Shown in pieces: positions 1-58,737 of a DNA stretch of 64,000 bases; within the stretch, counting starts at the first letter, position 1, and every line of letters begins with the position of its first letter. Both the position numbers and the translations under genes were made by a program. The DNA is from a virus: IMG/VR virus record IMGVR_UViG_3300045988_161343; one strand, 5' to 3'. Under the pieces are notes generated by a model, which saw nothing but the letters and a program-made list of their open reading frames with translations, made no database searches and was not told the DNA's origin.

Positions 1-1
1 T

Positions 2-748
2 CACGTTTTGGATAAACCGCATATCTTTTTAGATGAAATTATGCGACAGGCACAAGATAGTGAAATTATTAGATTATCTATGTGGGTACGAGAAGGTAAG
101 CCCCTTGGGCAATTCCCAGTAGCTAAAGAATAGGTCTAGATTTTAAGGCCATATGAATTAATTCCAGAAATGTATGATTGGGCAGATCAAACTTTATGTG
201 CTTCTAATAAAAGACGTATTGAAATTAATAATAAAGTTCGAGAGCGACAAGGACGAGGAGCTACTCCAGAAATAGGAGATAAAATCATAGGATTAACTAA
301 TCATTGGGATTTTACATCTACTGATGGATTATGGCCTTTAACTAATGGATGTATTGGAACAATTACTAATTATCAAATTATTCCATATAATTATCCAAGC
401 TTTATTTATAATAAACAACTCCAATATATGTTTACGGGGATGGATATACCTAATGGAAGATTTGAATCTATACCTATTGATTATGATGCTTTAATTACAG
501 GTACTCCAGCCTTTGATAATAAGCAAGCATTTAGAATGAATAGTTTTGCTAGAAAATCTGATGCATTAGAAGCTCCTTATTATTTTGCTTATGCTTATGC
601 AATAACTGTTTGGAAAGCTCAAGGTAGTGAATGGGATAAAGTGTTATTAATTGAAGAGGCCCATCCTTTTGACACATTAGAACATTAGAAATATTTATAT
701 ACTGGCATTACAAGAGCCAGTGAAAAATTAGTAGTTATAAGGAAATAA
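2..748 (+). CDS. SF1 helicase (RecD/Dda/Pif1-like), C-terminal part; gene starts upstream of window
   Basis: Frame of ORF 170..688 extended through 3 in-frame TAG; motifs AYAITVWKAQGSEWDKV (helicase motif V) and YTGITRASEKLVVI (motif VI) lie on both sides of a TAG; stops at TAA 746-748. Confidence 0.6.
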
Positions 749-751
749 TAT

Positions 752-1351
752 ATGAATGTATTAAGTATAGATTTTGATATTATTATGGCACCAAGTATTA
801 ACTTATATAATAGCATGGTACCATAGGCTCATTGGGAAGATTTATTAAAAAGTTTACCTAATCTTACTACTACTCCTGCTGATTTAAATATTTATTCTAA
901 TATACTTAGATATTTATTACGGACTATAGATAAAACAACTTCTATTTATATTTCTTATGGTCATAATAAAATAAAAGAATATTTACAATATGATTATGAT
1001 TTAAATATAACTAATATAGATCATCATCATGATATTTTTTATAATCCTAAAGACGCAGAAAATAAATTATGTGATTGTACTTGTGCTGATTGGGTTAAAT
1101 ATTTCTATGATTAGGATAAATTAAAAGATTATACTTGGGTTCACAATGACAATTCTTGTGATCCTAATTTTGAAGTAAATTTTAAATATAACAAAATACC
1201 ATTTAAGGAATTTAAATTTACTAATTCGTATGATAAATATTTTATCTGTTTATCTCCAGAATGGGTTCCACCTTATTATCATAGTTTATTTTATACTCTT
1301 TTGGACTGTTTAAATGAAAAAAATAATTATCATTTGGAGATTATAGAATAA
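752..1351 (+). CDS. hypothetical protein (about 199 aa, 2 internal TAG)
   Basis: RBS aaggaaataatatATG; single frame to TAA at 1349-1351 with in-frame TAG after MVP and after YFYD; not in standard-code ORF track because of TAG. Confidence 0.5.
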
Positions 1352-1542
1352 TGGAAATACAAAATTTACTTAATTAGTTAGGTCATGAGTTAGATCTACA
1401 ACAACAACAAAATCAAAACCAAATTAATTATTTACGCAATGAAAATCAAAAATTGAAAAATAATTTATCAATTTATAAACAAAATTTAATTGAATTAAGT
1501 AGCTTTATAAATAAAATAGCTAATGACATAGATGATTTTTAA
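1351..1542 (+). CDS. small Gln-rich coiled-coil-like protein (63 aa, 1 TAG)
   Basis: ATG overlaps upstream stop (taATGg); MEIQNLLN-TAG-LGHELDLQQQQNQNQ...; TAA at 1540-1542. Confidence 0.4.
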
Positions 1543-1611
1543 AATTGATTTTGATGAAATTTTATGATATAATATTTATAGAAAATAATAATAAATTAAG
1601 GAGGTAGGGAA

Positions 1612-1662
1612 TTGAATACTTATTTTGGTTGCCATAAGGACAATTTTATGCATTCCAAATAA
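1612..1662 (+). pseudogene. duplicated 5-prime fragment of the Pol III alpha gene (RBS AAGGAGG + TTG, 16 codons, LNTYFGCHKDNFMHSK)
   Basis: About 24 of 30 nt identical to the start of the polymerase gene at 2263 (MNTYFNCHNHTDYS); lies immediately upstream of the GIY-YIG endonuclease gene. Confidence 0.4.
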
Positions 1663-1696
1663 GTTGATTTCCATAATATAATGAGGAGGGATGCTT

Positions 1697-2266
1697 ATGT
1701 TTGGCATTTATAAAATAACAAATAAATAGAATAATAAAATTTATATAGGTAAATCTAAAGATATAGAAGATAGATGGATTTATCATACTTCTCATTATAA
1801 TGACTCCAAAGAATGGGATAAAAATTTATATAAAGCTTTTAGAAAATATGGTATAGATAATTTTAATTTTGAAATTATCGAGTCAATGGATGAAGAAACT
1901 TATAATAAATTTGGGAATAATAGAGAACAATACTGGATTATCTATTATGACTCTTTTAATAATGGGTATAATGAAACACCAGGCGGAGATGGCGGGTATA
2001 ATGTAAGTGCTGTAAAAACAAATTCTAAATTAACTAAAGAAGAAGTTATTCAAATTAGAACAATGTATAATAATTGTAATATCTGCGTATCTGATGCTTA
2101 TGAGCTATTTAAAGATAAAATTACAAAGAGAGGGTTTCAAGCAATATGGTTAGGTCAAAATCATAAAACTATTATGCCCGAAGTTTTTACTGAAGAAAAT
2201 AAAAAGAAACATAATTATTTAGAACGACAAAGAACAGGTAGGCTAAGGCAGGAAAGAAAAAAATGA
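1697..2266 (+). mobile_element. free-standing GIY-YIG homing endonuclease (189 aa, 1 TAG inside the GIY-YIG module)
   Basis: RBS gaggagggatgcttATG; GIYKITNK-TAG-NNKIYIGKS...R...H.. pattern typical of GIY-YIG (I-TevI-like); C-terminal part is ORF 1886..2266; TGA stop overlaps the polymerase ATG (ATGA). Confidence 0.75.
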
Positions 2267-5200
2267 ACACTTATTTTAATTGTCATAACCATACTGATTA
2301 TTCGAACCTCCGTTTACTGGATTGTATAAATAAACCAGAAACTTTAATTGATAAAGCTATTGAATTAGGACTTTCGGGAATTGCTATCACAGATCACGAA
2401 AGTCTTTCTGCTCATATGACAGTAAATCAATATGCTAAAAAAATCAAAGAAAAATATCCAAATTTTAAAATAGCATTAGGCAATGAAATTTATTTAACTG
2501 ATGATAGAAGCACAGGACAAAAGTATTACCATTTTATTTTAATTGCTAAAGATGCTATAGGATATCGAGCATTAAAAGAATTAAGCTCAATTGCTTGGCA
2601 AAATTTATATGTTGATAGAAAAATGGAACGTGTTCCACTTTTAAAGAATGAATTAAAATCAGTAGTAGAGAAATATAAAGGACATTTAATTGCCACTACT
2701 GCATGTATTGGTGGAGAATTAGGTACTTGCCTTTTAAAGGCTGTAGAATATAAAGAACAAGAGAATAATTATGAATTATATCAAATTTTAAAACAAATAG
2801 ATACTTTTCTTACCTTCTGTCAAGATTTATTTGGTGAAGATTTCTATTTAGAGATTGCTCCATCGACCGCGGCAGATCAAAAACTTGTAAACCATATGAT
2901 TTATAAAATCGGTCATAAATATGGAATTAAAGTAGAAGTTGCTACCGATAGTCATTATTTAACAAAAGAAGATAGACCAATCCATAAGGCTTATCTTAAT
3001 TCAAAAGATGGAGAACGAGAAGTTGACAAATTTTATGAATTTGCTCATTTAATGACTTATGATGAAGTCTTTAAATTAATTGAACCTTGTTTTATTTACT
3101 TAGATATTGAAGAACAACCAGAAGAAATCGCAAAAGAAATTTTAAATAATACTCTTGAAATCCAAAATAAAATTGAAGATTTTTCGCTTGAAAGAAAACA
3201 AATAATTCCAAAAGTAGAGGTAACTGATTATCCTCAATCATTAACTGGTTGGTATGGTGAGCGTGAAGAGAAATATCCTGTTTTATGTAGCTTATTAATG
3301 AGCAACAATCCTCAAGAACGTTATTGGGTTAATGAATGTTATATGTCTTTATTGGAAAAGATGTATAATAAAAGTATTTCAGATGATAAGTTAGAAATTT
3401 ATTTAAGTCGTCTTGAAACTGAAGCTGATATTATAAAAGATATTGGTGAAAAATTAGATGACTGCCTTTTTGCTTATTTTAATACTTTTAAACATTATAT
3501 TGATTTGTTTTGGAATTGTGGCTCGATAGTAGGTCCAGGACGTGGTTCGGCCACTGGCTTTTTATCTAATTATTTGTTAGGTATTACTCAGCTTGATCCT
3601 ATAAGATGGGGTCTTCCTTATTGGCGTTTCTTAAACAAAGAACGTGCTGAATTACCTGATATTGATATTGATTTGGCTCCTTCAAAACGTCCAGCAATTT
3701 TTGAAGCTATTCGTAAAGAGCGTGGAGAGTTAGGTTTAATTCAGGTCGCTACATTTGGTACTGAAACTACTAAATCTGCTATTCTTACTGCTTGTAGAGG
3801 TTATAGGTCTGATAAATATCCAAATGGTATTGATGTAGATGAAGCTCAATATATGTCCTCTCTTATTCCACAAGAACGTGGATTCTTATGGGAAATTAAT
3901 GATGTTATTTATGGTAATGAAGAAAAAGATAGAAAGCCTGTTAAAACATTTATTAATAAAGTAAATGAATATCCAGGGCTTCTTGATATAATTATTTACA
4001 TTGGTGGTATCGTTAATAAACGTTCTTCTCATGCTTCTGGTGTTATTCTTTATGGCGATGATCCATATGATACAGCGGCATTTATGAGAACGCCTAGTGG
4101 CAGTTTAATTACTTGTTGGGATTTACATCAAGCTGAAGCAGCAGGTGATACGAAATATGATTTCCTTGTTACTGAAGCTTCTGATAAAATTATCACTTGT
4201 TATGAATTATTATTAAAGGCAAAAGAAATTCCTAACTTATCCTTAAGAGATTTTTATAATCAATATATTCATCCAGAAGTAATAGATACAACTGATCAAA
4301 AAATTTGGGATCATCTTGCCGCCGGAGATGTATTAGACTGTTTTCAATTTTCTACTGGTGTAGGATTAGCCATTGCTAAAAAATTAAAGCCACAAGATCC
4401 TATGGAAATGACCGCGGCTAATGCTATGATGCGTCTTATGTCTGAAAAAGGTAAGGAATCACAGCAAGATAGATTTTATCGTATTCAGCATCAAGGTATT
4501 CAAGCATTTGATCAAGAAATGAAACAACATCATTTGCCGCAAGAGCTTATTGATAAATTCCATAAGCATTGTGATAAATATTATGGTTGTTGCCCTTTAC
4601 AAGAGCAAATGATGGAAATCCTTATGGACATAGCACACTTTACATTGGGAGAAGCGAATTCTGCCCGTAAAGTTGTTGCTAAAAAACAAATGGCTAAAAT
4701 TCCTCAATTAAAAGAACAGGTATTTAGCCGTTTTGATAATAAAAATGATGCAGAATATTTTTGGGAAACGGCAGTAGCACCACAATTAGGATATGCGTTT
4801 TCATTAAATCATAGTCTACCTTATAGTTTTGTGGCTATTCAAATGATTTATTTTGTTATTCATTATAATCCTATCTATTGGAATTGTGCTTGTTTGATTG
4901 TTAATAGCGGTTCTTTAGAAGATAATAGCGAAGAAGAAATCGTAGATATTTATGATCCTGAAGCAGATGATTTAGCCAATGGTGTTACTTTTGAAGATTT
5001 GCCAGATAAAAAATCAAAAGTAAGAAAAACTAATTCTACTGATTATGGAAAGATTGCTAAGGCTATTGGAGACATTCGTAAAGCTGGTATTCAAGTAAGT
5101 CTTGCTGATATTAATAAATCAGAATTTAGTTTTATTCCTGATGTTGAAAATAATCAAATCCTGTTTGGCTTAAAAGGTATGCTAAATGTTGGTGATGATG

Positions 5201-6267
5201 TAGTTAAAACTATTATTGAAAATAGACCTTATAAATCCCCAAGAGATTTTTTAAATAAAGTTAATCCTAATAAGCAAGCAATGATTTCACTTATTAAAGG
5301 TGGAGCATTTGATCATATGATGGATAGAAAACTTTGTATGGTCTGGTATATTTGGGAAACTTGTGATAAAAAGAAAAATCTTAATCTTCAAAATTTAGCT
5401 ACTTTAATGAAATTCAATCTTCTTCCTGCGGATACTCTTGAACGGCAGCAAGCTTTACACATTTATGAATTTACTCGTTATTTAAAACAAATTTGTAAAT
5501 ATGATAAAGTTTATTACAAATTAGATGATAGAGCTATTGATTTTTTACAAAAAATTGATAAAGATAGTTTAATCCAAAATAAAGATTCTAATTTTTATTT
5601 AAATATTAAAGATTGGAATGATAAGGTCTATCAAGGTTGGATGGATATTTATCGTGAACAAATTGCTGATAATAAAGAAGAAATCTTAAATAAATTAAAT
5701 GAAATTATATTTAAAGAAGACTGGAAAAAATATTGTCCTAAAGTAAATTATTCAGCTTGGGAAATGGAAGTATTATGCTTCTATTATCATGAACATGAAT
5801 TGGCTCAAGTCAATCAAAATAAATATGGGTTTGCCGATTTTTACAGTTTACCTGAAGATCCAGTAGTAGAAAGAAGTTTTGTTAAAGCTGGAAAAACAAT
5901 AAATATTTATTATTTATCTAAATTATGTGGTACTTGTATTGCTAAAAATAAAAATAAAAGTATTGTAACAATTCTTACTCCGACAGGAGTAGTAAATGTA
6001 AAATTCAGAAAAGAATATTTTACATTATTCGATAAACAAATTTCTCAAAAACAACCTGATGGAACTAAAAAAATTATTGAAAAATCTTGGTTTAATCGCG
6101 GTAATATGATTGTGGTTCAGGGTATTCGCTCAGGCGATGATTTTATTGCTAAAAAGTACGCCTCAACTTCTGGTCATCAACTTTATCATATTGATACTAT
6201 TCAATCAAATGGAGATTTAATTTTAAGAAGTGAACGATATCAAGGAGTAGCAGAAGATGAAGAATAA
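2263..6267 (+). CDS. dnaE: DNA polymerase III alpha subunit (DnaE-like, N-terminal PHP domain), 1334 aa, no TAG codons
   Basis: PHP-domain motifs at N-terminus (CHNHTDYS, ITDHESL), polymerase palm motif GPGRGSATGFLSNYLLGITQLDP; uninterrupted in standard code. Confidence 0.85.
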   Translation: MNTYFNCHNHTDYSNLRLLDCINKPETLIDKAIELGLSGIAITDHESLSAHMTVNQYAKKIKEKYPNFKIALGNEIYLTDDRSTGQKYYHFILIAKDAIGYRALKELSSIAWQNLYVDRKMERVPLLKNELKSVVEKYKGHLIATTACIGGELGTCLLKAVEYKEQENNYELYQILKQIDTFLTFCQDLFGEDFYLEIAPSTAADQKLVNHMIYKIGHKYGIKVEVATDSHYLTKEDRPIHKAYLNSKDGEREVDKFYEFAHLMTYDEVFKLIEPCFIYLDIEEQPEEIAKEILNNTLEIQNKIEDFSLERKQIIPKVEVTDYPQSLTGWYGEREEKYPVLCSLLMSNNPQERYWVNECYMSLLEKMYNKSISDDKLEIYLSRLETEADIIKDIGEKLDDCLFAYFNTFKHYIDLFWNCGSIVGPGRGSATGFLSNYLLGITQLDPIRWGLPYWRFLNKERAELPDIDIDLAPSKRPAIFEAIRKERGELGLIQVATFGTETTKSAILTACRGYRSDKYPNGIDVDEAQYMSSLIPQERGFLWEINDVIYGNEEKDRKPVKTFINKVNEYPGLLDIIIYIGGIVNKRSSHASGVILYGDDPYDTAAFMRTPSGSLITCWDLHQAEAAGDTKYDFLVTEASDKIITCYELLLKAKEIPNLSLRDFYNQYIHPEVIDTTDQKIWDHLAAGDVLDCFQFSTGVGLAIAKKLKPQDPMEMTAANAMMRLMSEKGKESQQDRFYRIQHQGIQAFDQEMKQHHLPQELIDKFHKHCDKYYGCCPLQEQMMEILMDIAHFTLGEANSARKVVAKKQMAKIPQLKEQVFSRFDNKNDAEYFWETAVAPQLGYAFSLNHSLPYSFVAIQMIYFVIHYNPIYWNCACLIVNSGSLEDNSEEEIVDIYDPEADDLANGVTFEDLPDKKSKVRKTNSTDYGKIAKAIGDIRKAGIQVSLADINKSEFSFIPDVENNQILFGLKGMLNVGDDVVKTIIENRPYKSPRDFLNKVNPNKQAMISLIKGGAFDHMMDRKLCMVWYIWETCDKKKNLNLQNLATLMKFNLLPADTLERQQALHIYEFTRYLKQICKYDKVYYKLDDRAIDFLQKIDKDSLIQNKDSNFYLNIKDWNDKVYQGWMDIYREQIADNKEEILNKLNEIIFKEDWKKYCPKVNYSAWEMEVLCFYYHEHELAQVNQNKYGFADFYSLPEDPVVERSFVKAGKTINIYYLSKLCGTCIAKNKNKSIVTILTPTGVVNVKFRKEYFTLFDKQISQKQPDGTKKIIEKSWFNRGNMIVVQGIRSGDDFIAKKYASTSGHQLYHIDTIQSNGDLILRSERYQGVAEDEE

Positions 6268-6520
6268 AATTGATTATGATGAATTATAGGATTTGTTAAA
6301 AACCCATCAACATATTGAAATTAGAGGAACAATTTTAATTAAATTTGAATAGACTCCTTATCTTAGAGTAATTATAAGAGAGTTAAATGGAAATGATTAT
6401 TGGATGGTAGATACTCCAGATATCTTATGCCTTTTAACATAGTTTTTAGGATCGTGTTCTTATAATTGTTGTAATGGTAAATATTGTTTTTAGTCTTTTA
6501 ATAGAAGGAATAATAAATGA
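6257..6520 (+). CDS. hypothetical small protein (about 87 aa, 4 TAG)
   Basis: ATG overlapping the polymerase 3-prime end; frame closed by TGA overlapping the ATG of the next gene (ATGA at 6517); Cys-rich C-terminus. Confidence 0.35.
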
Positions 6521-7086
6521 ATAATAAAAAATATCAATTAGTCGCACTCATAGGTAAAGCCGGTTCAGGCAAAGATACTATTTTAAAAGATGTAGTAAAA
6601 GCTTATGAACTACCTATGAATATTGTTGTTTCTTATACAACTCGTCCAATGCGTGAAGGAGAGACAGAAGGAAAAGAATATCATTTTATATCTGAAGAAG
6701 ATTTTAAGCAAATGATAAATAATAATCAAATGCTTGAATATGTTCAATTTAATAATTGGTGGTATGGAACTGGCATTAAATGTTTAGCTGATGATAAAAT
6801 TAATATAGGTATTTTTAATCCTTCTGGAATTAGATCATTAATCAATTTTCCAGAAATTGATTTACGGATATATTATATTCATGCTTCTGACAAACAACGT
6901 TTCCTTCGTCAATTAAATAGAGAGGAATACCCTGATATTAAAGAAATTATTAGACGTTATTCTGCTGATGAAGAAGATTTTAAAAATATAAATTTTGATA
7001 ATATGCAAATTTTATTTAATGAAACGGAAAGAGATAGATTAAAATGCTGTGATATAATTACAGATTATGATTGGTTTTGGTACTAA
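6517..7086 (+). CDS. guanylate kinase-like / deoxynucleoside monophosphate kinase (189 aa, no TAG)
   Basis: P-loop GKAGSGKDT and TTRPMREGETEGKEYHF resemble the guanylate kinase family. Confidence 0.6.
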   Translation: MNNKKYQLVALIGKAGSGKDTILKDVVKAYELPMNIVVSYTTRPMREGETEGKEYHFISEEDFKQMINNNQMLEYVQFNNWWYGTGIKCLADDKINIGIFNPSGIRSLINFPEIDLRIYYIHASDKQRFLRQLNREEYPDIKEIIRRYSADEEDFKNINFDNMQILFNETERDRLKCCDIITDYDWFWY

Positions 7087-7177
7087 ATCTTAACCCAAAG
7101 TAGATAATGAATTAATAATAAACACTAAATATAGTATAAGTTCAAAAATTTATACTATATTTAGTGCGGAGGTTAAA

Positions 7178-9445
7178 ATGTATATAATTAAACGTGATGG
7201 TACAGTTGTATTATTTGATAAAAATAAAATAATTAATGCTATTAATAAGGCATTTATAGAAGTCGATGGATAGTTATATGAAAATGATACAGCTACTGAT
7301 ATTGCCAATGATATTGAATCTTGGATGAATAAATGTCCAGATGGTAGTATTGAAGTAGAAGATATCCAAGATATAATTGAAGATTATTTAATGTAGTCAG
7401 AACGACGTGATGTTGCTCGTGCTTATATTAGATATAGATATAAAAAAGAAGTAGCTCGATAGAAAAAAGATGATTTTATTCAAGCTATTAGAAAAAAATT
7501 AGATGGTAAAGATATTAAAAATCAAAATGCTAATGTAGATGAAGCATCATTCGGTGGCCGCATTGGTGAAGCTAGTAGTGTTGTAACGAAACAATTAGCT
7601 TTAGATTATATTGTATCTCCTATGACACGCAAAAATCATTTAGAAAATATAATTTATACTCATGATTTAGATGCTTATTATGTTGGTTCTCATAATTGTT
7701 TAAGTGTACCTTTTGATGATTTACTTGCTAAAGGATTTAATACACGCTAGACAGATGTACGTCCAGCAGGTTCAGTAAATACAGCTTTTTAGTTAGTAGC
7801 TGTTATTTTCCAGATTCAAAGTCTTTCTCAATTTGGCGGTGTAAGTGCTACTCATCTTGATTGGACTATGGTTCCTTATGTTCGTAAATCTTTTTATAAG
7901 CATTATCGTGATGGTATGAAATACTTATGTAATTGTAATTGGAATTTAGATAACTATTTAGAAGATAGCGATACCTATAAAAAAATCATAGATATTCCAA
8001 TTAATGATTATTCAGCTTATCTAAATGAAGCAGATGATGTTGGAGATTTTGATAAAGTATATCAATATGCTATGGATATGACTTTAAAAGAAGTTCATCA
8101 AGCAGTTGAAGGTATGTATCATAATCTTAACACATTACAATCACGTTCTGGTAATCAATTACCTTTCACATCTATTAATTATGGTACTTGTACTCTTCCA
8201 GAAGGAAGAATGATTACTAAAGCACTTTTAGATGTATCTATTGAAGGTATTGGCAAATTACATAAAACATCTATTTTCCCTTGTGGTATTTTCCAATGCA
8301 TGAAAGGAGTTAACCGTGAACCAGGTGACCCAAATTACGATTTGTTTAAACTCGCACTATAGTCCACCGCCCAAAGATTATATCCCAACTATGCAAATGT
8401 TGATTGGTCAGGGAACGCTGGATATGACATCAATGACCCCCGCACCTATTTTTCTACAATGGGATGCAGAACAGCCAATGGATACGATATTAACGGTTTC
8501 GGTTAGTTAAAAGATGGCCGTGGTAATATTTGTCCAGTAACTATTATTCTTCCTACTTTAGCTATGATTGCTAAAAAAGAATGCGAAGAAGAAGGGCAAG
8601 AAGAAGATATTATTCCAGTATTTATGGCTTTATTAAATAGAAAAATTAATGAAGCTCGCATTCAATTAATGGAGCGTTTTGATTGGATTTGCTCTCAAGA
8701 TCCTAAGTCTGCTAAATTTATGTATGAAAATAATTTAATGGCTGGTTATATTCCAGAAGAAGGAATTAGAAGTGCCCTTAAGCATGGCACATTAGCCATT
8801 GGACAAATTGGTTTAGCAGAAACTCTTTAGATTCTTATTGGTAAAGACCATACAACTAAAGAAGGTATGGAATTAGCAAAACGAATTGAACAAATGTTTA
8901 AAGATTACTGTGCAAAAGCAAAAGAACAATTTAAACTTAATTTTGGAGTTTATTACACTCCTGCTGAAAATTTATGCTATACGGCAATGACTAAATTCAA
9001 AGAGAAATATGGTATTATCCCTAATGTCTCTGATAAAGAATTTTTTACTAACAGTATTCATGTTCCCGTTTGGAAAAAAATGTCACCTTTTGATAAAATT
9101 GACATTGAGAGCCAATTGACTGGTTATTCTTCTGCTGGATGTATTACCTATGTAGAATTAGACTCTACTGTAAAGCATAATATTGATGCTCTTGAACAAA
9201 TTGTTAATTATGCAATGGATAAGGATATTCCTTATTTTGCAGTAAATGTGCCTAATGATACTTGCCTTGACTGCGGATATTGTGATGAATTTAATGATAA
9301 GTGCCTTGAATGTGGCAGTACTAATATTCAATAGCTACGTCGTGTAACTGGCTATTTAACTGGAAATTATAAAACTGCTTTTAATTATGGTAAACAGAAA
9401 GAAGTAGAAGCACGAGTAAAGCATACGGGGTAGATGGAATGATAT
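7178..9445 (+). CDS. nrdD: anaerobic ribonucleoside-triphosphate reductase NrdD (about 755 aa, 9 in-frame TAG)
   Basis: ATP-cone start MYIIKRDGTVVLFDKNKI; conserved PGDPNYDLFKLAL, STMGCRT, DGRGNICPVTI, glycyl-radical RRVTGYL near C-terminus. Fragments 7868..8362, 8564..8830, 8867..9334 are one frame joined through TAG; ends at TGA. Confidence 0.85.
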
Positions 9446-16806: not shown

Positions 16807-19704
16807 TTAATCTAAATAATCTGTAATATAAACATTTTGCCCAAAAACATAAGGAGAAGAATCTGGATATTTTTCACTTATGACTTCAATAGATATATCA
16901 TTCTTTAAGTTAAATTCATAAGTTACTTCAGCATATCCCCATAATCCTTCTGACGGAGCAACCTAACATTTAGCAGATTCTTTCATCAACGTATTATTAT
17001 AAAAAATTTTACTAGTTATTTCTCCTATTTCCGTTGTAGATTTATTTCTACTAAGTGTATGAATTGTTATTTTATCTCCTTCTTTAGCTGTAAATTTTGG
17101 AATATTTGTTTTTGAGATTCCATCAATAGATATTGAAGTATCTACAAGATTTTTTGTAGTAATTCCAATCCATTTATTCCAAACTAAATTATTGTTTAAA
17201 TATTGAGTATCTAAATACCAACTAGAATAAGCAGTTTTTTTACTAATTTCTTGCTAAGGATTCTATTGTATTGAAATAATAGAATCCTGGCTGTTACCTG
17301 AAACAGATATTAAATCCCAATTATTTTGAATATAAAGTCCCCAATAACTGCTAGTTAATGTAGGATTATAAAAATTAATAAGAATTACTTCTCCACTGTC
17401 AGAATTAATTGTTAAATCAGGCAAATTAGCCCCAGCATTATCTCCAAAATTAATTATTAACTATGGAGTGCTACTACCTGCATTTTTTATTGCTTCTTGA
17501 TTTAATTTAGTTCCATTTAATATTTGTTTGATAATAAATTCTAATCCATCATTAACATGATCTACATAATATGTTTTTAAAATATTGTAATTAAAAATAT
17601 AATCATTATTACCATTGCCCTCAGAACCTTCATAAACAATATTATTTGATAAATGTTCTACAGCAGTTATATTAATAATTTTTTTAGCTAATGGGATTCC
17701 AGGCAAACCAGTTAAAGTACCAATTTTTTCCCAATTATCAAATAAAAACTCCTAATCTTCTAATGATTGGACTGGATCTTTTTTATACTAAAAAATATGT
17801 CCACGTGTAGAATCACTTAAATTATCTGTAATATTAATAAATAAATCATTTTTAGAAAGAATAGGACCAATATAACTCTCTTTATTACCTATTACTTTTT
17901 CAATATTATTATTAATTGTATCTATAGAAACAGTTAATCCAGAATTTTTAGGAGTAAGGATATGGATAGGCAAAGGAGTTTCTAAATCGATTTGTTCCAT
18001 ATTTTTACTTATGGGTTTTATATTAGATACTTTATAAGTCTATTCATTTTTAACATTTATAGTTTTTATTGATATATCAGGATATTTAGGAATGGAAAAA
18101 TTAAAAATTTCCTAATAAGTACCAATATTATCTTCTTCTAAAATACTACTTTCAACTACAATCTAATTTTTAATGTAACTATTATCTTTATCTTTAATAA
18201 AAGAATCAACTAATTCTGTTTTAGCTAATGGAGCCGGTGCTGTAATAGCCCCTAAATAAATGCCAGTAATCTAAGAAGAAGTTATCTCATATAAGCTATA
18301 AATTTTCCCAGTTGGCTCATTTATATAGAAATCAGCTTTATAGCCATTATTAGTTATATCATAAAAATGATCTCCTAATGTAGCATATTCAGCTAATATT
18401 GATAAACAATAATTAGCTATACTACTATTTTCAAAATAATATACAGAACTAATGTCATCTTTTTTATTATTATTTATTAACTTTAATAAAATATTAAATA
18501 AAGAATATATTATTTGATCAACCTAAATCAAAGATCTAGGATACATATCATTAAATAAATAAAATAAATTCTATTGGCTACTTGGATTATATTCTGAATC
18601 TATCCAGTACCATTCATATTCTAACTCATTTTTAATTTGCTATAATTTAAAATTATCAACTAAATAAGTATATAATTGCTAAGATAATTTAGTTATTTTT
18701 AAATTATTTTGAGGATTAAATAAAACTCTTTCATCAGGCTAAGTATATATTGCATTTAAATTATTATTGAAAAAATGTTTATTATCAATAATATTCCCAT
18801 TTTCATCATATATTATTTTATCTTCTTTTAGGATATGTAATAAATAATACGAAATTCGTGATAGTATAGAAACCTAATTTTCCCGAATTGTATATTTATA
18901 ATCATAATTTTGATATCCATAAGTTTTATAATTACCCATATTATGAAAATAAGATAATGGTCCTAATCCAAATAAAGAACCAGAAAAAAATGTTGGAGCT
19001 TTAGGCAAATCAAAAGTTAATTGAGGCCTAGTTAATGTTGCTGTCTTAATATTTCCATTTTTATCAAAATAAGTTCCTTCAGTTTTAAAATAAACATTTG
19101 GATCTTCCTAAGAGCCAACTATATTTTTATATACTTCTTCAATACGCTATCCACGTTGTAAATAAAATTTAATTTTAGGAGTATCAGGATTGGTTAAATC
19201 TAAAGTAACATAAGGATCTCCATCTTCAATATCTATAGTCTAATGAAATACTTGAATACGAGGAGTAACGCCAGTTACGCAAGCAATTAAACGATATCCA
19301 AAACCAAAACATTCTTCACTTTCTAAATCAGATACTTCATGAAGAGATTCTCCATATTCTTCTTTATTATCTTCTTCTAAATTTAAGAAAATATAAATAT
19401 TATTATCATTCTAAGGAAAATCTGGAGAAACTGTTAAATTTCTATCTACATAGATTTTCTACCACAATGAATTAGTATATGATTTTCCGCTATCTTTTAA
19501 ATCTATCTGAAGATTAATATTATAGTTGGAGGTTTCTTCATTCATATAAGATGGATCACCATAATTAATAAAAACATAATCTCCAACATTTACAGGAGAA
19601 GTCCATCTTGCTTTTAAATCTCCAACCATGTCAATAGCACGATTGGCAAATATTCGTGTTATTTTAAAGTCTTGCCCTTTTTGTCCACCATAAAAGCTAT
19701 ACAT
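16807..19704 (-). CDS. large tail fibre / receptor-binding-type structural protein (about 965 aa, many TAG)
   Basis: Frame from ATG 19704 joins ORFs 19459..19704, 17788..18000, 17461..17706 (same phase) through TAG only; ends TAA. Confidence 0.45.
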
Positions 19705-23400: not shown

Positions 23401-24047
23401 ATATACTTTGTACTAAGTTTAGCTGTCATATCTACATCATTAATTATAACATTCTACTCTGGTTCTTTGCCAAAATGTGTTACACATTCTTTAATAACCG
23501 TAAATATAGGCACTTGCTCAATTGTAATATCTCCATTTTCATCTTCATATTGTGTTTCATGAAAGGTAACTGCTGAAGGTAATGTACCTCCACAAGTACC
23601 ATCAAGCATACACATTTTATCCTTACCTGAAATAGAAATATTTGCAGCAGAAGCTGTAGTAGAAGAAGTAGCTTGATTAATTACAAATGTTCCAAGAGGA
23701 AACCAAATAATATCTCCATAGTTTTTATAATCTTCAAATGGATTTTCAAGTCCTACCTCTACTTTTACTTTTTTATTAATTGAAATTATATTTTCAATAT
23801 TATTAATGTCATTTTCATTTTCTACACCGCTAATTGTTAGACTAATCGTGCGGCGCAAGGCGGCAGACCCATTAACTGTAATAGAGCCTGCCGTTGCTAT
23901 ACCCTATACTTCTCGTATGGGTTTTTCATCAACAAAAGATAAAATGGTAAGTTTGATATAATGTTTTTTTATACGCATTTCATCTAATGCAGTTAAAAAC
24001 TCACTATCTTTTAGATATTCTCTCATTCCGTTTTCTCCTATGATTCA
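20421..24047 (-). CDS. large tail structural protein (about 1200 aa) with Asn-rich linkers and repeated LDPGF motifs; start uncertain
   Basis: Same phase links ORFs 23454..23858, 22083..22337, 21429..21680, 21054..21380 through TAG to TAA near 20421. The best RBS/ATG near 24025 is in another frame and stops after 10 codons, so a frameshift or indel near 23990-24047 is possible. Confidence 0.4.
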
Positions 24048-27000
24048 TCTTTTTCTTTCTGCTTACCTTTTTTAACTTCCAAAGATGAAACAGATTTATA
24101 ATTAACTATTGCATAAGTAGGTCTAACAAATTCTACTTTAACAATCTCATCTTTCAAAGGATTTAAAATTAATTTATTAGTAGGTCCAATACGTACATGA
24201 GTACCAGGAGAACTAATATGATAATTACCAGTAGTTGCATCAAGATCATACTCTCTATAAAAAACTAAATCTGTATTAGCATCTGCTTCAATTTCGATAC
24301 TATCAATACCAGTAAAATTATATATAATTAATTGATCTGAACCATTCATCCAAGCATCAGTCTATTTATTTAAAGTTAATCCAGACAAAGGTCTATAATT
24401 TTCTAATAACTATGTACCAGTTATTAATAATTCTTCAATAGACTCTGTATCATCTTTAACTCTATTTAAAAATTCATTTATATCATTATACAATAAATCA
24501 AAAGTAGATTCAAGTTTTTCATCACTATAATTATTTAAAATAGAAGTATGTACTTTTTCTTTTATTATATCCATTAAATTTAATGTAGAATATAATCCAT
24601 AATTATATTTTTCATTAACTATCTAAGTATCATCATTTCTAAAGAACTAATGATTATCAAGAATATCTTGAGTATCAGTAAATACTCCACCAAGCTATCC
24701 CCATTGTGCAAATTCACGCTTAGCAACAGTCACCATTTTTAAGAAATCTTCTTCCTCTAAATCAACTATATAATTAATTAAAATAGGGCGAGTAAATTTT
24801 AAATACATACTATCAATAATGGCATCATCCAAATGATAAATACGACTGGGCATCATAGAAATTTCTTTACCATTTATTATCATAGTAATAATATTAGTCT
24901 AATTTTTTTCATATTCCTATAAAAGCTATTTACATCTTAATAATTCAACTGCATTAGTTAACTGACCTATCATAGTTGAACTAGTTTTATTTTTTAAATA
25001 TTCTATTTTATTTTTAAGATTTAGTTTAGGATACTATTCTACCCAAATCGCTTTTATTCTTCTTACTCGATATTTTCTATCTTCACTTATTTCTTGTTCT
25101 TCTTGAAGTTTTATTGCGTTACAAATGTTATCATAAGTAAGATTAAATTTATTATTATCAACTATAGATAATTTATTATTAGTAATTTCCTGTGCATATT
25201 TTCCATTAAATGTTCGAGCTACTTGCCCAATAACTGTTTTAGTTTTTGTACTAGCATTCTAAATTGCTAATTTAGAATTATTAGACAAAGTAGTTAATGG
25301 ATTTATCTAATATAAGATAATATTTTCTGGGGTACAATCAGCTACTTCATAAGCTGTTGAATTAAAATCATAAATCATACGATATAAAGAAGCTTGAGGA
25401 GTCCAAGTAACATTAGTTAAAGTAACTATATGATTTCCTTCAGTTGGTGACTTAAATAATTTATAACCACCATCATTTAAAAATTCTTCTACCCAATGTC
25501 TATATATACGTTCCATATATATATTATCATTAGTTGGATTAGTATTAAATGTAGAAGCATTTTGAATATTATATTGTCTTATATTATAATCATTGTTATA
25601 TGGATTCTATAAATCACGTTCAAAAGTTTTAATATATTTATCTTTTGAAATAACTATATCTCCATACCAACTATGATAATAACCACCTTTAGCATCATTA
25701 CGCATTAAAAAAGAAGAATCAATATCACTTAATAAAGAAATTTTTGCACCTAACTAAAATTCTGCATAATGTGCCAATCCATTACGCAAAATAATCGGAT
25801 ATTTAGAATTCAAGCTATCTTGCTTTTGGAATAAAGTAGTATGCTTATAACTATTCATTTTGCAATCAAAATCTAAACGAACTTGAATACCATTATTATA
25901 AATATAACTATACTAAAAATTAGACCAATGCGCTGGTGATGAATCAATATCATCACTTTCATATTTAGGGGCACTTCTTAATCCTACAGCATTCTATTTC
26001 TATAAAGCATATTTATATTTAACTCCACTTTCAACAGTAAAATCTTCATATAATAAAGTTAACTTATCATCATAATTAGTTTCATTATACCAATCAAATT
26101 GAGCTATATCTTTCCATTGAGTATAATTATCAGTTTCACAAGCTCTTGATAAAATAAAAGTACCATCAAGAGATTGATATTTTTCTACATCTATTTCACG
26201 TTCTACTTTTTCACCAGTAATAGTAGTAATAGTTATTTTTTCTTTTACTTCATAAGGATTATTTTTAATATAAATTTCTAAGCTGCCATTTTCATCAGCT
26301 CGCAAATTATGACTAAAATCTTCAATTGCTTTTATTCTAGTAATTTTACTTAATACATGAGTTTCTATATTATCTTCATTAATATTACCAGTTTGATAAA
26401 TTATATCTCCCGCATTATACCCATCTACATCATCATAATAACCTTTAATAAATTTAGGAGCCTATCCTTTTAATCCAAAATATTCCTTATACATCTAAAA
26501 AGCAACTTGATTTGCTCCGGCTATTTTATTTAATAATATGGTAGATTCAGTATTATCTTTTACTGTAAATACTAAAGTCTATAACTATTTTAAATAATTT
26601 TCAGTAATAGTAAAATTATAATATTCAGAAGATTTTTGATAATTATTCATTGTAATAACATCAAAAATCAATGAATACATTTTTGTTCCAGTCTAATCTA
26701 ATTGTCTATTAAAACTATAAGAGACTAAAGCACTATATTTATCTTTCCCTCCACCATTATACTATAGCCAATCGCTCTATAAATATGGCTCAGAACTTGG
26801 AGGATTCTTTGAATTAAAACTGCCTTCGTATAATCTAAAACGATATTTATCCAATGGTTCAGTATCGCTTTGATATCCTCCCTCAAATTTAGGGAAACGG
26901 CTATCTTCTACGTTATTACTTGATATTAAAATAAATCCTACATCTAATGAAGAAATATCTTTATTATTTAATATTTCTACAATTGGATCATCAATTGCTT

Positions 27001-27451
27001 TAGTAATTATAACATTGGACCATTCTGAAAAAGCTTCAGCTACAGTCTAAGATTTTTTCCATTTAAAAAATGAAATTTTATCTGTATAATCTATTTTCCC
27101 ATAGCCAAAACGTATCTAAATTTTATAATAAGTATTAGAAACCCAACCTATTGTATCTCCTAATTTAATATCTGAACTATTTACAGTAACTGTATATATT
27201 TCATTATCAGTAGAGGTAGTTGGCTTTTCCATATAAATAATACCATCCCAATATTTATCAGTATTAATTATACTTTTATTATTGGATTGCTATACAAATT
27301 TAATTGAGATATTCTTTACATCCTCATAATTTAATGATTTAGGTAAAGAAAAATTTATATTAATAGAGGCCGCAGTTGCTAAAAATGCTGGTATTGAACT
27401 ATCTACAATAGGCGGATATACTCTATTTATATTTATTGTGGACGCTGCCAT
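24023..27451 (-). CDS. large tail structural protein (about 1140 aa, many TAG)
   Basis: ATG 27451; ORFs 26000..26305, 25307..25516, 24695..24883, 24038..24349 share one phase; ends TGA overlapping the next start. Confidence 0.45.
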
Positions 27452-30877: not shown

Positions 30878-30905
30878 AATGAGGAGGAAATTAATCCTCC
30901 TCATT
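30878..30905. terminator. hairpin between the tape-measure gene and the next tail gene
   Basis: aatgaggaggaaattaatcctcctcatt, then RBS and ATG of next gene. Confidence 0.4.
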
Positions 30906-39900: not shown

Positions 39901-40212
39901 TAAGTGTGTAGCAAAATCCTAAAGAGTATAACCACTCTAGCTTAAACTCTTTGAAAATTTTGATAAATCTAAACGCCCAGTATTAACATTAGTCGCCTAA
40001 TCTAAAGCAATTTTTAACTCCTAAACTGCTGCCGAGGCTTCATCTATTTCTTTTTTAGTGGCATTAACATCAAAAAATTTAATATTTTTTGTTGCTATCT
40101 AATTCATTAAAGTATCTAATGAACTTTGTAAATCTCGTAATTGCTATTTAGCTTGACCTGTATCAGCTGTAAATCGCATATTAACATTATAATTAGCACT
40201 GTTATTAGCCAT
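30901..40212 (-). CDS. tail tape measure protein, about 3103 aa, about 96 in-frame TAG, no TAA/TGA
   Basis: RBS aaaggagctattttATG at 40212; one phase links ORFs 38605..38964, 36193..36444, 35200..35385, 34192..34392, 33637..34014, 31669..31923 to TGA at 30901-30903; TMP-like N-terminal motif WDSLSRAEQVALA-TAG-TVGGVRQY; Gly-run GGGGGGGG. Confidence 0.65.
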
Positions 40213-40256
40213 AAAATAGCTCCTTTCTCTCATTATAAATTTCTATATATATAAAG

Positions 40257-58499: not shown

Positions 58500-58627
58500 G
58501 AAATATCGTTATTTAAAATTTAAATTATTTTCCGTTTTCTGAAATTAAAAATGAGTTTAGAAATTATTTTGCCAGGTAGGAAGATTTATCCATTTTTTCC
58601 ATTTTTTTTACACGAAACCCTGCCCCC

Positions 58628-58692: not shown

Positions 58693-58737
58693 ACGACTAA
58701 CCCCCAAAAAAAATATTTCGATTTTTGAAAAAAAGTA

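What the first reader, a model, noticed from the sequence alone, without database searches (positions are those of the whole stretch)
1597..2266. GIY-YIG homing endonuclease inserted at the 5-prime end of the Pol III alpha gene, with a duplicated gene-start remnant
A 189-aa GIY-YIG gene ends with TGA overlapping the polymerase ATG. Just upstream, behind a consensus RBS, is a 16-codon ORF (LNTYFGCHKDNFMHSK) about 80% nucleotide-identical to the true polymerase start (MNTYFNCHNHTDYS). Such a duplicated target segment is the footprint expected from endonuclease-driven insertion.
Basis: partly seen in the sequence, partly recalled or inferred. Interest (0 to 1): 0.6.

Follow-up and report, generated by a model that had tools for sequence, protein, structure and literature searches.

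The report
Homing endonuclease cassette replacing polymerase gene start
A selfish endonuclease gene sits inside the first few codons of this phage's DNA polymerase gene and carries its own replacement gene start, leaving the original start stranded upstream as a dead 16-codon stub; close relatives without the insert show the empty site.

Summary
An I-TevI-like GIY-YIG gene (1697-2266) ends in an ATGA overlap with Pol III alpha (2263-6267). Upstream, behind AAGGAGG, lies a 16-codon stub (1612-1662).

Near-identical IMG/VR phages (L001, L003, L004; 94-99% identical in the flanks for L004) lack exactly 651 nt (1638-2288). Their polymerase starts with TTG at the sequence that forms the window's stub, with 26/26 bases identical. 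So the stub is the displaced original start. The polymerase now uses a diverged ATG start brought in with the endonuclease.

This is not a transposon-style target-site duplication. The same layout (stub, a conserved motif at the left end of the insert, the endonuclease (HEG), a new start) occurs in every homologue context examined at 56-69% protein identity. A second occupied/empty pair (L170 vs L008/L010) has the same junction. An unrelated endonuclease in L063 uses the same design.

The likely mechanism is intronless homing, with a break near codons 9-10, in the HxH motif of the PHP domain. This is inferred, not shown.

This is a new variant of a known kind, of moderate interest. Seen in passing: some relatives need an RF2-like CTT TGA C +1 frameshift about 30 nt downstream.

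The parts
1545..1573 (+). Promoter of the polymerase transcription unit (TTGATT, 17-nt spacer, TG-n-TATAAT). In this allele it now also drives the stub and the endonuclease.
   Evidence: Best sigma-70-like match in 1200-2500: 10/12 with an extended -10. It is nearly invariant in endonuclease-free relatives. No promoter of comparable quality and no + strand terminator lies between it and the polymerase.
1598..1604 (+). Original strong ribosome-binding site (AAGGAGG) of the polymerase gene, now serving the stub.
   Evidence: Read directly from the sequence. It is identical and identically placed in front of the TTG polymerase start in L001, L003 and L004.
1612..1637 (+). Displaced original start of the polymerase gene (TTG plus codons 2-8 and 2 further bases: L N T Y F G C H).
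   Evidence: 26/26 identical to the real polymerase start of endonuclease-free L003/L004 and 25/26 to L001. It is 21/27 identical to the window's working start.
1638..1660 (+). Left-end motif of the cassette, GGACAATTTTATGCATTCCAAAT. It is probably a decayed continuation of the old polymerase 5' end (compare ..ACA ATG TAT TCG AAC, codons 11-15, with about 5 extra bases).
   Evidence: The motif GGRCRAWWYTATGYAW occurs only in endonuclease-carrying loci: 18 of 178 loci held, always 50-65 nt before the endonuclease start. It is aligned across 7-8 lineages with a mean pairwise identity of 79%. That it represents decayed polymerase codons is an inference.
1612..1662 (+). The 16-codon stub ORF (LNTYFGCHKDNFMHSK, stop TAA). 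It is probably translated but has no conserved product.
   Evidence: The reading frame after the junction differs between lineages: window K-D-N-F-M-H-S-K, L086 D-G-Q-N-Y-V-F-H-F-F. In L173, L175, L082 and L178 the stub is internally deleted or has lost its start.
1638..2288 (+). The 651-nt insertion relative to endonuclease-free relatives: left-end motif, spacer, endonuclease gene and the first 26 nt of the replacement polymerase start.
   Evidence: It is the only long indel in a 7.2-kb global alignment with L004; the other gaps are 18 nt (3376-3393) and the alignment end. L004 is 94-99% identical in most 400-nt blocks, with dips to 84% and 76%. The same gap appears against L003 and L001. The aligner placed it at 1633-2283, which is equivalent because CATAA is repeated at both ends.
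1683..1690 (+). The endonuclease's own ribosome-binding site (GAGGAGGG), 6-7 nt before the ATG at 1697.
   Evidence: Read directly from the sequence. Purine-rich sites lie at the same place in the other lineages (alignment).
1697..2266 (+). Free-standing GIY-YIG homing endonuclease gene of the I-TevI type: 189 aa if TAG is read as sense; alternative ATG at 1691.
   Evidence: Pfam PF01541 E 8e-8. PHROG 7168 'homing endonuclease' E 7e-26. A profile of the family hits the I-TevI catalytic domain 1mk0 at E 5e-16. An AF2 model of P0001, a 98%-identical cluster representative, has pLDDT 87; residues 1-97 superpose on 1mk0 with target-normalised TM 0.89 and rmsd 2.0 A. Motif residues G3 I4 Y5, Y16 I17 G18, R26, H30, E77 and N92 are invariant in 32 homologues.
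1727..1729 (+). In-frame TAG (codon 11) inside the endonuclease gene.
   Evidence: It is also present in L002. L170 and L171 have three in-frame TAGs each, and four other lineages have none. TAG is read as sense across the window.
2250..2256 (+). Purine-rich stretch (AGGAAAG) in the Lys/Arg/Glu-rich tail of the endonuclease. It is the only Shine-Dalgarno-like element in front of the new polymerase start.
   Evidence: Read directly from the sequence. Equivalent AAAGG or AGAGGA stretches lie in the endonuclease 3' ends of all other lineages. A role in translation is inferred.
2263..2298 (+). Replacement polymerase start carried by the cassette (ATG, M N T Y F N C H N H T D). It overlaps the endonuclease stop (ATGA).
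   Evidence: It differs from L004 at 10 of the first 36 nt (positions 1, 6, 16-17, 21, 27, 33-36) and is close to identical from about nt 37 over the stretch aligned. Six of seven endonuclease-linked starts read TTTAATTGTCAT (N-C), against 20 of 77 endonuclease-free alleles. Stop/start overlap or near-abutment is conserved in all lineages.
2263..6267 (+). DNA polymerase III alpha-type gene, the host gene of the insertion. It is intact, with no in-frame TAG.
   Evidence: Pfam PHP (residues 7-199), DNA_pol3_alpha, finger and HHH_6. There are 0 TAG codons among 1334. The insertion point falls in the codons for the H-x-H metal-binding motif at the start of the PHP domain.

Best explanation
A free-standing I-TevI-type GIY-YIG homing endonuclease gene has invaded the polymerase gene itself, after about codon 8-9, as a 651-nt cassette that repairs its own damage. 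At its right end the cassette carries a substitute polymerase start: an ATG plus about 26-36 nt of diverged 5' coding sequence. The stop of the endonuclease overlaps this ATG, so the polymerase is re-created directly behind the endonuclease.

The old promoter, strong RBS, TTG start and first eight codons remain upstream. They now read into cassette DNA and end after 16 codons: a dead stub.

Inferred spread: the enzyme cuts endonuclease-free alleles near codons 9-10 (CAT^AAT CAT, the H-x-H motif of the PHP domain). The break is repaired from an occupied genome during co-infection. The left end pairs with promoter, RBS and stub; the right end pairs with the polymerase body. The cassette is copied in between. 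This explains why the stub always matches the local recipient lineage while the new start travels with the endonuclease.

The occupied genome would be safe from its own enzyme because the stub copy is scrambled just after codon 8 and the working copy has different flanking bases. This point is also inferred.
For: Shown:
1. Empty and occupied alleles exist in otherwise near-identical phages. A single 651-nt indel separates them, and the stub is 26/26 identical to the real start in the empty allele.
2. A second, independent pair (L170 vs L008/L010) has the same junction. It is identical to the empty allele through nt 24 on the left and from about nt 31 on the right.
3. All eight endonuclease homologues at 56-69% identity whose contexts were looked up (P0002, P0004, P0007, P0017, P0020, P0030, P0035, P0048) sit directly in front of Pol III alpha. 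Seven of the eight show a stub or stub fragment, the left-end motif, the endonuclease, and an intact start overlapping or abutting the stop. L178 (P0035) keeps only the 3' part of the motif, with no stub.
4. The endonuclease is intact and I-TevI-like by sequence, conserved catalytic residues and fold.
5. There is no intron: no Rfam hit at E<=1 in 1-8000 and none at gathering score in the whole window. Only about 80 nt of the insert is non-coding.
6. An unrelated endonuclease in L063 shows the same displaced-start plus new-start design, with its left flank identical to the insert-free L059 through nt 44.

Suggestive: intact stubs have Gly at codon 6 (4/4), and endonuclease-linked working starts never do (0/7; Fisher p=0.003 without phylogenetic correction).
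Against: - No cleavage, homing or expression data exist. The break position is inferred only from where recipient-type sequence stops and resumes in two pairs.
- L002, also occupied, keeps CATAATCATAC intact in its working copy. Self-immunity therefore cannot rest on that core alone.
- The direction of events is not proven. Empty alleles could be secondary losses by recombination between the two 26-nt repeats. L001 looks like such a hybrid: a stub-type 5' part followed by ACTGATTAT, as in the window's working copy.
- More distant homologues (L091 59%, L092 52%) lie upstream of the polymerase with no visible stub. The design is therefore not universal in the family.
- The allele statistics ignore shared ancestry.
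Confidence: 0.8

Rival explanations
1. The 651-nt insert is a group I intron that carries the endonuclease. Splicing would join the upstream TTG start (1612-1637) to nt 2289 onward and restore the polymerase behind its strong RBS. The downstream ATG copy would then be incidental.
For: Removing 1638-2288 would restore exactly the reading frame and sequence of the empty allele. GIY-YIG enzymes of this type are often intron-encoded. Two homologues carry the JGI label 'group I intron endonuclease', and some distant homologues (L093, L095-L097) lie in structured, intron-like flanks.
Against: - No Rfam intron match even at E<=1 and none at gathering score in the window.
- Only about 59 nt lie before the endonuclease ORF and 22 nt after it, too little for a ribozyme core.
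- No conserved secondary structure is found in the leader across 7 lineages.
- In L173, L175, L082 and L178 the upstream start is internally deleted or gone, while the downstream start with its stop/start overlap is always intact. The downstream start is therefore the one under selection.
Confidence: 0.04
2. The stub and the conserved motif at the left end of the cassette are kept because they do something. One option is a binding site (operator or decoy) for the endonuclease's DNA-binding domain that limits its own expression, as the I-TevI operator does. Another is a short upstream ORF that sets how many ribosomes reach the endonuclease and polymerase.
For: - The 23-nt motif is present in every occupied lineage examined and in no empty one.
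- Its mean pairwise identity (79%) is slightly above that of the endonuclease coding sequence (64-79%, mostly about 72%), although it is non-coding.
- The spacer that follows the motif aligns poorly.
- The motif resembles polymerase nt 30-48, part of the presumed recognition region.
- The strong RBS and start are retained in four lineages.
- I-TevI autorepression through a homing-site-like operator is established (own knowledge).
Against: - The peptide is not conserved and its frame differs between lineages. Three to four lineages have lost the start or RBS.
- A 7-point excess in identity over 23 nt is within noise.
- No conserved RNA fold is found.
- Shared descent of the cassette explains the motif without any function.
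Confidence: 0.15
3. The occupied form is ancestral in this phage group. The empty alleles arose by deletion through recombination between the two 26-nt direct repeats, and the endonuclease is no longer mobile.
For: Direct repeats of 21/27 identity flank the insert and offer a route to clean loss. L001's start looks like a repeat-recombinant hybrid. The layout is old, being shared by homologues at 56-69% identity.
Against: - Only 1 of 80 IMG/VR relatives carries this endonuclease. Occupied lineages are scattered among empty ones.
- Each stub matches its own lineage's empty allele exactly: 26/26 for the window vs L004, and the whole 24 nt for L170 vs L008. That pattern is expected from repeated invasion, not from ancient residence.
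- The catalytic residues are intact.
- Loss and gain are not mutually exclusive in a homing cycle.
Confidence: 0.1
4. The resemblance between the short ORF and the polymerase start is a chance match in AT-rich DNA.
For: The match is short (27 nt) and the window is 30% GC.
Against: It is the best match in 128 kb of searched sequence, with p about 0.002 per kb. It is 26/26 identical to the true start of relatives, with a collinear promoter and RBS.
Confidence: 0.01

Closest known systems
Intronless homing by free-standing GIY-YIG endonucleases of T-even phages (SegF, SegG and other Seg proteins)
   Same: A free-standing GIY-YIG gene lies next to a conserved essential gene. Closely related phages differ by its presence or absence. 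Short tracts of flanking sequence differ on the side of the insert (co-conversion-like). There is no intron. (The family description is from my own knowledge; the features here are.)
   Different: Seg genes lie between genes. This one lies inside the coding sequence, after about codon 8, and brings a substitute 5' end for the invaded gene, leaving the old start as a stub. I found no description of such a layout for Seg or Mob genes (literature searches).
T4 mobA plus gene 60 cassette (endonuclease inserted into topoisomerase gene 39, with the 50-nt bypass element)
   Same: An endonuclease invaded an essential replication-related gene. The mobile unit includes extra sequence that keeps the host gene working and is thought to protect against cleavage (PMC5009743).
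   Different: In T4 the gene was split in two and the protective insert is bypassed by ribosomes. Here the gene stays whole and only its first 26-36 nt are replaced. Possible recoding sites (+1 shift, 8-nt insert) occur in relatives but not in this window.
Fungal mitochondrial endonuclease ORFs accompanied by partial gene duplications (atp6 and cob C-terminal duplications; Allomyces atp6 from my own knowledge)
   Same: GIY-YIG or LAGLIDADG ORFs lie beside a partial duplicate of the invaded gene, with one working copy and one remnant (PMC6279837).
   Different: Those cases replace the 3' end and leave the remnant downstream, in mitochondria. This case replaces the 5' end together with the translation start, in a phage, and hijacks the gene's promoter and RBS.
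I-TevI (phage T4 td intron endonuclease)
   Same: The catalytic domain is homologous: 33% identity, target-normalised TM 0.89. A flexible linker and a separate C-terminal helical domain are predicted. The conserved homing-site-like motif upstream of the gene recalls the I-TevI operator (own knowledge).
   Different: This gene is not in an intron. The C-terminal domain has no detectable match to the I-TevI DNA-binding domain. The protein is shorter (189 vs 245 aa). Its target is a polymerase gene, not thymidylate synthase.
Endonuclease genes clustering at DNA polymerase and other essential genes ('HEG islands', PMC10448857)
   Same: The polymerase 5' border is a hot spot. Relatives carry GIY-YIG, HNH or PD-(D/E)xK-like endonuclease genes at the same place, and others inside the polymerase gene.
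   Different: In the passages I searched (term search only), that work describes endonuclease genes bracketing genes and exchange boundaries, not a cassette that supplies a new gene start and leaves a displaced one.

Membership tests
GIY-YIG homing endonucleases (I-TevI type) | GIY-YIG catalytic domain above the curated score | tested here: met
   PF01541: E 8e-8, 32.9 bits against a cut-off of 22.6, covering residues 1-92. PHROG 7168/314/5123 'homing endonuclease'.
GIY-YIG homing endonucleases (I-TevI type) | Conserved catalytic residues (Tyr of GIY and of YIG, Arg, His, Glu, Asn) | tested here: met
   G3 I4 Y5, Y16 I17 G18, R26, H30, E77 and N92 are invariant in 32 homologues. Their equivalence to I-TevI R27, E75 and N90 is from my own knowledge plus the 1mk0 alignment.
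GIY-YIG homing endonucleases (I-TevI type) | Fold of the I-TevI catalytic domain | tested here: met
   AF2 model of P0001 (98% identical to the window's protein), pLDDT 87. Foldseek against 1mk0: E 1.5e-6, target-normalised TM 0.89, rmsd 2.0 A.
GIY-YIG homing endonucleases (I-TevI type) | Separate DNA-binding domain joined by a linker | tested here: inconclusive
   The model shows a disordered stretch at 101-110 and a helical C-terminal half. No significant structural or Pfam match was found for that half.
GIY-YIG homing endonucleases (I-TevI type) | Site-specific cleavage of the endonuclease-free allele | not testable with these tools
   This needs enzyme and substrate. The predicted substrate is the L004-type sequence AAGGAGGTAGGGAATTGAATACTTATTTTGGTTGCCATAATCATACAATGTATTCGAACC.
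Free-standing endonuclease spreading by intronless homing | Not embedded in an intron or intein | tested here: met
   No Rfam hit. It is a separate ORF with its own RBS. Only about 80 nt of the 651-nt insert is non-coding.
Free-standing endonuclease spreading by intronless homing | Presence/absence polymorphism at one site among near-identical genomes | tested here: met
   Window and L002 are occupied. L001, L003, L004 and L005 are empty, and against L001, L003 and L004 the difference is a single 651-nt indel. Second pair: L170 vs L008/L010.
Free-standing endonuclease spreading by intronless homing | Donor-type sequence confined to a short tract next to the insert (co-conversion) | tested here: met
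   Differences from the empty allele are confined to polymerase nt 1-36 (window vs L004) and nt 7-30 (L170 vs L010) within the aligned stretches. The left flank is recipient-type up to the junction.
Free-standing endonuclease spreading by intronless homing | Super-Mendelian inheritance in mixed infection | not testable with these tools
   Requires phage crosses.
Intron-encoded endonuclease (group I intron) | Ribozyme core flanking or embedding the ORF | tested here: not met
   no match; no conserved fold. There is too little non-coding sequence.
Transposon-type target-site duplication | Short identical direct repeats made from the target at each insertion | tested here: not met
   The repeats are only 21/27 identical. 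The upstream copy equals the recipient allele and the downstream copy is cassette-type. The arrangement is inherited across endonuclease lineages of 56-69% identity.
Endonuclease ORF with partial duplication of the invaded gene (fungal mitochondrial type) | Endonuclease ORF flanked by one intact and one truncated copy of the same gene segment | tested here: met
   Stub at 1612-1662 and working start at 2263 onward on either side of the ORF. The precedent is in PMC6279837. The difference is that the 5' end, not the 3' end, is duplicated.

The most novel reading that the evidence does not exclude
The first ~60 nt of the polymerase gene is a battleground in which both sides use translation tricks.

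(a) Endonuclease cassettes carry a substitute, cleavage-resistant gene start. They keep the displaced start and the conserved left-end motif as a decoy or operator for their own enzyme.

(b) Some endonuclease-free relatives carry resistance indels about 30 nt downstream of the insertion site that are rescued by recoding:
- an RF2-type CTT TGA C +1 frameshift (10 of 80 loci);
- a TCT TAA C +1 site (L043);
- an 8-nt insert between two TCC codons, the first followed by TAG (L073), a miniature of the T4 gene 60 bypass.

If so, polymerase synthesis in those phages would also depend on RF2 activity, in phages that have reassigned TAG.
Probability: 0.15. Interest if true: 0.8.

Novelty: new variant of a known kind. 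Interest (0 to 1): 0.5.

Why it matters
- It is a clean natural example, with both empty and occupied alleles in hand, of how a homing endonuclease gene can settle inside an essential coding sequence without an intron or intein: it brings a spare gene start.
- It gives a directly testable target. The predicted cut lies within nt 24-31 of the empty allele, in the codons for the metal-binding H-x-H motif.
- It shows that gene callers will annotate a meaningless 16-codon ORF, and a polymerase with a weak RBS, in such genomes.
- The same design with an unrelated endonuclease (L063), together with other endonuclease genes at the same border in relatives, marks the polymerase 5' end as a recurrent invasion site in this group of TAG-recoded phages.
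- These cassettes rewire expression of the replication polymerase, from a strong RBS and TTG start to translation coupled to a selfish gene. That may carry a fitness cost worth measuring.

Tried and rejected
- Rfam at E<=1 on 1-8000 and at gathering score on the whole window found nothing, so an intron or other known RNA was rejected.
- RNAalifold on the stub-to-endonuclease leader of 7 lineages gave 0 pairs, so a conserved hairpin masking the endonuclease RBS was rejected. A 7-bp pairing I saw by eye in the window (GCAUUCC/GGGAUGC) is not conserved.
- INPHARED phages (blastn) have no close relative; only 65-80% polymerase fragments of Enterococcus and Staphylococcus phages matched.
- An exact scan of IMG/VR for the left junction found only the L002 contig.
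- A scan of all 80 polymerase loci for a second copy of their own start found only L002 and L063. The other hits were repeated early-promoter sequences.
- No tRNA, and hence no suppressor tRNA, lies in the window.
It was rerun with P0001 (98% identical) as the first row.
- Pfam found nothing for the L063 endonuclease. PHROGs did.
- RNAalifold around the CTT TGA C site of relatives found no convincing stimulatory structure (-2.8 kcal/mol).
- Extra constraint on the left-end motif is not established: 79% identity against about 72% for the coding sequence is too small a difference over 23 nt.
- I saw no clear link between the frameshift alleles and the presence of an upstream endonuclease gene (informal tally).
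Full report
**1. What is in the window**

Positions 1545-2300 read, in order:
- a promoter-like site, TTGATT, a 17-nt spacer, TG-n-TATAAT (1545-1573). It is the best match in 1200-2500, at 10/12 with an extended -10;
- a strong RBS, AAGGAGG (1598-1604);
- a 16-codon ORF starting with TTG (1612-1662, LNTYFGCHKDNFMHSK);
- a second RBS, GAGGAGGG (1683-1690);
- a 189-codon ORF (1697-2266) whose TGA overlaps, as ATGA, the ATG of a 1334-aa ORF (2263-6267).

The long ORF is a Pol III alpha-type polymerase with PHP, DNA_pol3_alpha, finger and HHH_6 domains. The PHP match starts at residue 7.

The 189-codon ORF is a GIY-YIG endonuclease:
- Pfam PF01541, E 8e-8, above its cut-off.
- PHROG 'homing endonuclease' families.
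- A profile of the family hits the I-TevI catalytic domain 1mk0 at E 5e-16.
- A model of P0001, a cluster representative 98% identical to the window's protein, has pLDDT 87. Its residues 1-97 superpose on 1mk0 with target-normalised TM 0.89 and rmsd 2.0 A. A disordered linker (101-110) and a helical C-terminal half follow.
- The motif residues are invariant in 32 homologues.

This fits the genome. Reading TAG as sense more than doubles the ORF content, and the minus-strand late genes are full of TAG codons: 113 in one 3110-aa ORF. No suppressor tRNA lies in the window.

**2. Is the repeat real?**

The stub and the polymerase start share 21 of their first 27 nt.
- This is the best match to the polymerase start anywhere on either strand of the window; the next best is 18/27.
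- Its local alignment score was reached by 4 of 2000 simulated 1-kb targets and by 0 of 116 real 1-kb chunks.

On its own that is modest evidence. The comparative evidence settles the question.

**3. Relatives with and without the insert**

A search of IMG/VR with the polymerase N-terminus returned 285 related stretches, of which 80 were kept.
- L002 is the same occupied allele: endonuclease 99% identical.
- L001, L003 and L004 (polymerase N-terminus 96-97% identical) and L005 (89%) have no endonuclease there.
- In L003 and L004 the conserved promoter and AAGGAGGTAGGGAA are followed directly by TTGAATACTTATTTTGGTTGCCATAATCATAC.., the polymerase gene. Its first 26 nt are identical to window 1612-1637. 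L001 has the same layout with one base changed, and the more distant L005 differs at several bases.
- A global alignment of window 1-7200 with L004 shows one 651-nt gap (1633-2283, equivalent to 1638-2288 because CATAA is repeated). The only other gaps are 18 nt (3376-3393) and the alignment end. Identity is 94-99% in most 400-nt blocks, with dips to 84% and 76%. The same gap appears against L003 and L001.

So the stub is the original polymerase start, displaced by the insert.

After the insert, the window's working start differs from L004 at 10 of the first 36 nt. These changes include TTG to ATG, GGT TGC to AAT TGT, and AATG to TGAT. From about nt 37 the two are close to identical over the stretch aligned.

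**4. The layout belongs to the cassette, not to one accident**

The endonuclease has 667 homologues at E<=0.001. One cluster is 98% identical and holds 113 member sequences. A subfamily of about 190 aa is 60-69% identical, and a group of about 250 aa has an extra C-terminal domain.

I looked up the contexts of eight homologues: P0002, P0004, P0007, P0017, P0020, P0030, P0048 and P0035. All eight lie immediately upstream of Pol III alpha, with the stop overlapping or abutting the polymerase start.

Upstream of the endonuclease, seven of the eight show the promoter, then a polymerase-start stub, then the motif GGACAAWWYTATGYATTCCA. L178 (P0035) keeps only the 3' part of the motif.

The stubs compare as follows:
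- Intact through codon 8 in the window, L086, L170 and L171, with the junction at the same place, after the first His codon.
- Internally deleted in L173, L175 and L082.
- Almost gone in L178.
- The reading frame after the junction differs between lineages, so no peptide is conserved.

The motif occurs only in occupied loci: 18 of 178 loci held. It resembles polymerase nt 30-48 (ACA ATG TAT TCN AAY) with about 5 extra bases. In L176 the resemblance runs to about nt 49. The original duplication was therefore probably 45-50 nt, with its middle since scrambled. This last point is an inference.

A second occupied/empty pair confirms the junction. L170 is identical to L008/L010 through ATGAGATCATATTTCGGGATTCAC on the left and from CATACAATG onward on the right.

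More distant homologues (L091 59%, L092 52%) lie upstream of the polymerase without a visible stub.

**5. Mechanism**

Shown:
- an intact I-TevI-like endonuclease gene lies inside the 5' end of an essential gene;
- empty and occupied alleles both exist;
- recipient-type sequence runs up to nt 24-26, and again from nt 28-37, in two independent pairs;
- stop/start coupling is conserved;
- there is no intron.

Inferred:
- The enzyme breaks empty alleles within about nt 24-31 (CAT^AAT CAT, coding the H-x-H of the PHP domain).
- Repair from an occupied genome copies the cassette. The stub plus promoter serves as the left homology arm and the polymerase body as the right arm.
- This accounts for each stub matching its own lineage's empty allele while TTTAATTGTCAT (N-C) accompanies the endonuclease: 6 of 7 linked starts against 20 of 77 empty alleles, p=0.003. 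Intact stubs all have Gly at codon 6 and linked starts never do: 4/4 against 0/7, p=0.003. These tests are not corrected for phylogeny.

Expression consequence, also inferred: the polymerase has exchanged a strong RBS and TTG start for an ATG behind a weak purine-rich stretch (AGGAAAG, 2250-2256) inside the endonuclease tail. Its translation is probably coupled to translation of the endonuclease.

Homing itself does not make target duplications. The duplication is a standing component of the element. It also offers a route to clean loss by recombination between the repeats, and L001 looks like such a hybrid.

**6. Generality**

- In L063 an unrelated endonuclease is inserted after polymerase nt 44 with the same design. 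It matches PHROG 374 and 9084 ('HNH' and 'homing endonuclease', E 1e-48 and 1e-26) and has no Pfam match. A displaced start identical to insert-free L059 lies upstream, and a diverged working start lies downstream.
- Other relatives carry an HNH gene (L027) or genes of the L063 type (L037, L052, L071) directly in front of the polymerase.
- Several relatives have GIY-YIG hits inside the polymerase gene.

**7. Comparison with what is known**

The element works like the free-standing Seg and Mob endonucleases of T-even phages (intronless homing; own knowledge). It fits the reported clustering of endonuclease genes at polymerase genes (PMC10448857).

A mobile unit that also carries sequence to keep the invaded gene working recalls two cases:
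- T4 mobA with the gene 60 bypass (PMC5009743);
- the partial C-terminal duplications beside endonuclease ORFs in fungal mitochondria (PMC6279837).

My searches found no description of a phage endonuclease cassette that replaces a gene's 5' end and start codon and leaves the old start as a stub. The library is incomplete, so this is not proof of absence. I rate it a new variant of a known kind.

**8. Verdict**

Interest is moderate (0.5). The case is tidy, general within this phage group and directly testable, but it is not surprising in principle.

The most novel reading still open links the cassette to the recoding sites seen just downstream in relatives (see the items noticed in passing).

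Noticed in passing
Related loci, not the window: L026 ~6000, L027, L033, L057, L051, L052 (~6000), L028 ~2917, L042 ~358, L044 and L068 ~6055: In 10 of 80 relatives the polymerase ORF stops at codon 20 in ..CGY TTR CTT TGA CTG.. and continues in the +1 frame (CTT_T GAC TGT = L D C I N, the conserved sequence). CTT TGA C is the heptamer of the bacterial RF2 (prfB) +1 programmed frameshift (own knowledge), and it decodes the same Leu-Asp. It occurs in four diverged lineages from different samples, so it is not a sequencing error. I found no upstream SD-like stimulator and no conserved downstream structure. The site lies about 30 nt downstream of the endonuclease insertion point. The window itself is in frame (CTG GAT, 2317-2322).
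   Followed up: partly
L073 ~5990-6010 and L043 ~5975-5990 (related loci): L073 has 8 extra nt between two TCC codons, the first followed by TAG (CAT TAT TCC TAG GTAAG TCC AAT TTG). The polymerase continues only if ribosomes hop or shift, a small-scale likeness of the T4 gene 60 bypass. L043 needs a +1 shift at TCT TAA C. Both sites are in the same 5' region of the polymerase gene.
   Followed up: no
L063 4972-6000 (related locus): An unrelated endonuclease gene (PHROG 374/9084; Cys-rich repeats plus an ..FDF..IEYDG.. C-terminal domain) is inserted after polymerase nt 44. It has the same displaced-start plus replacement-start layout. The left flank is identical to insert-free L059.
   Followed up: yes
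L027 5284-5949; L037 5174-5962; L052 5073-5876; L071 5172-5939 (related loci): Other free-standing endonuclease genes (an HNH type in L027, the L063 type in the others) sit directly in front of the polymerase start in relatives. No stub was detected for these.
   Followed up: partly
L001 8703-9002; L032 3258-3548; L034 2888-3247; L042, L068, L070, L074 (related loci); L005 6001-7810: GIY-YIG homologues (32-41% identical) lie inside the polymerase gene of several relatives, at about codon 560 or 900. L005 has about 310 extra nt within the first 500 codons. These look like further endonuclease, intron or split-gene insertions in the same polymerase.
   Followed up: no
window, whole; e.g. 30901-40233 (-), 16807-19704 (-), 24023-27451 (-): The phage reads TAG as a sense codon. 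Late or structural genes on the minus strand carry many in-frame TAGs: 113 in a 3110-aa ORF, and 18-27 in several ORFs of about 1000-1200 aa. The 1334-codon polymerase has none. No tRNA gene lies in the window.
   Followed up: partly
window 58500-64000: This is a compositionally distinct block: GC 36-46% against about 30% elsewhere. It holds short ORFs on the + strand almost free of TAG, including two paralogous ORFs of about 105 aa (60934-61245 and 61268-61588, both starting MINIRTI/MINVRTI). It may be a different module or an acquired region.
   Followed up: no
window 52829-53185 (-): A small ORF (118 aa, two in-frame TAGs) carries an ..LRFDFVIFD..FLIEYQGKQH.. motif. It resembles the C-terminal nuclease-like domain of the L063-type endonucleases. 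It may be a remnant or a stand-alone nuclease between late genes.
   Followed up: no
L008-L012, L028, L054, L064, L066 and others, about 2.6-3 kb upstream of the polymerase: The early promoter with its leader (AATATGGTATTATATAAATATAAATGAA) is repeated nearly exactly in front of other early genes in the same genomes. It is a shared early-promoter consensus, which produced spurious 'duplicate' hits in the stub scan.
   Followed up: no
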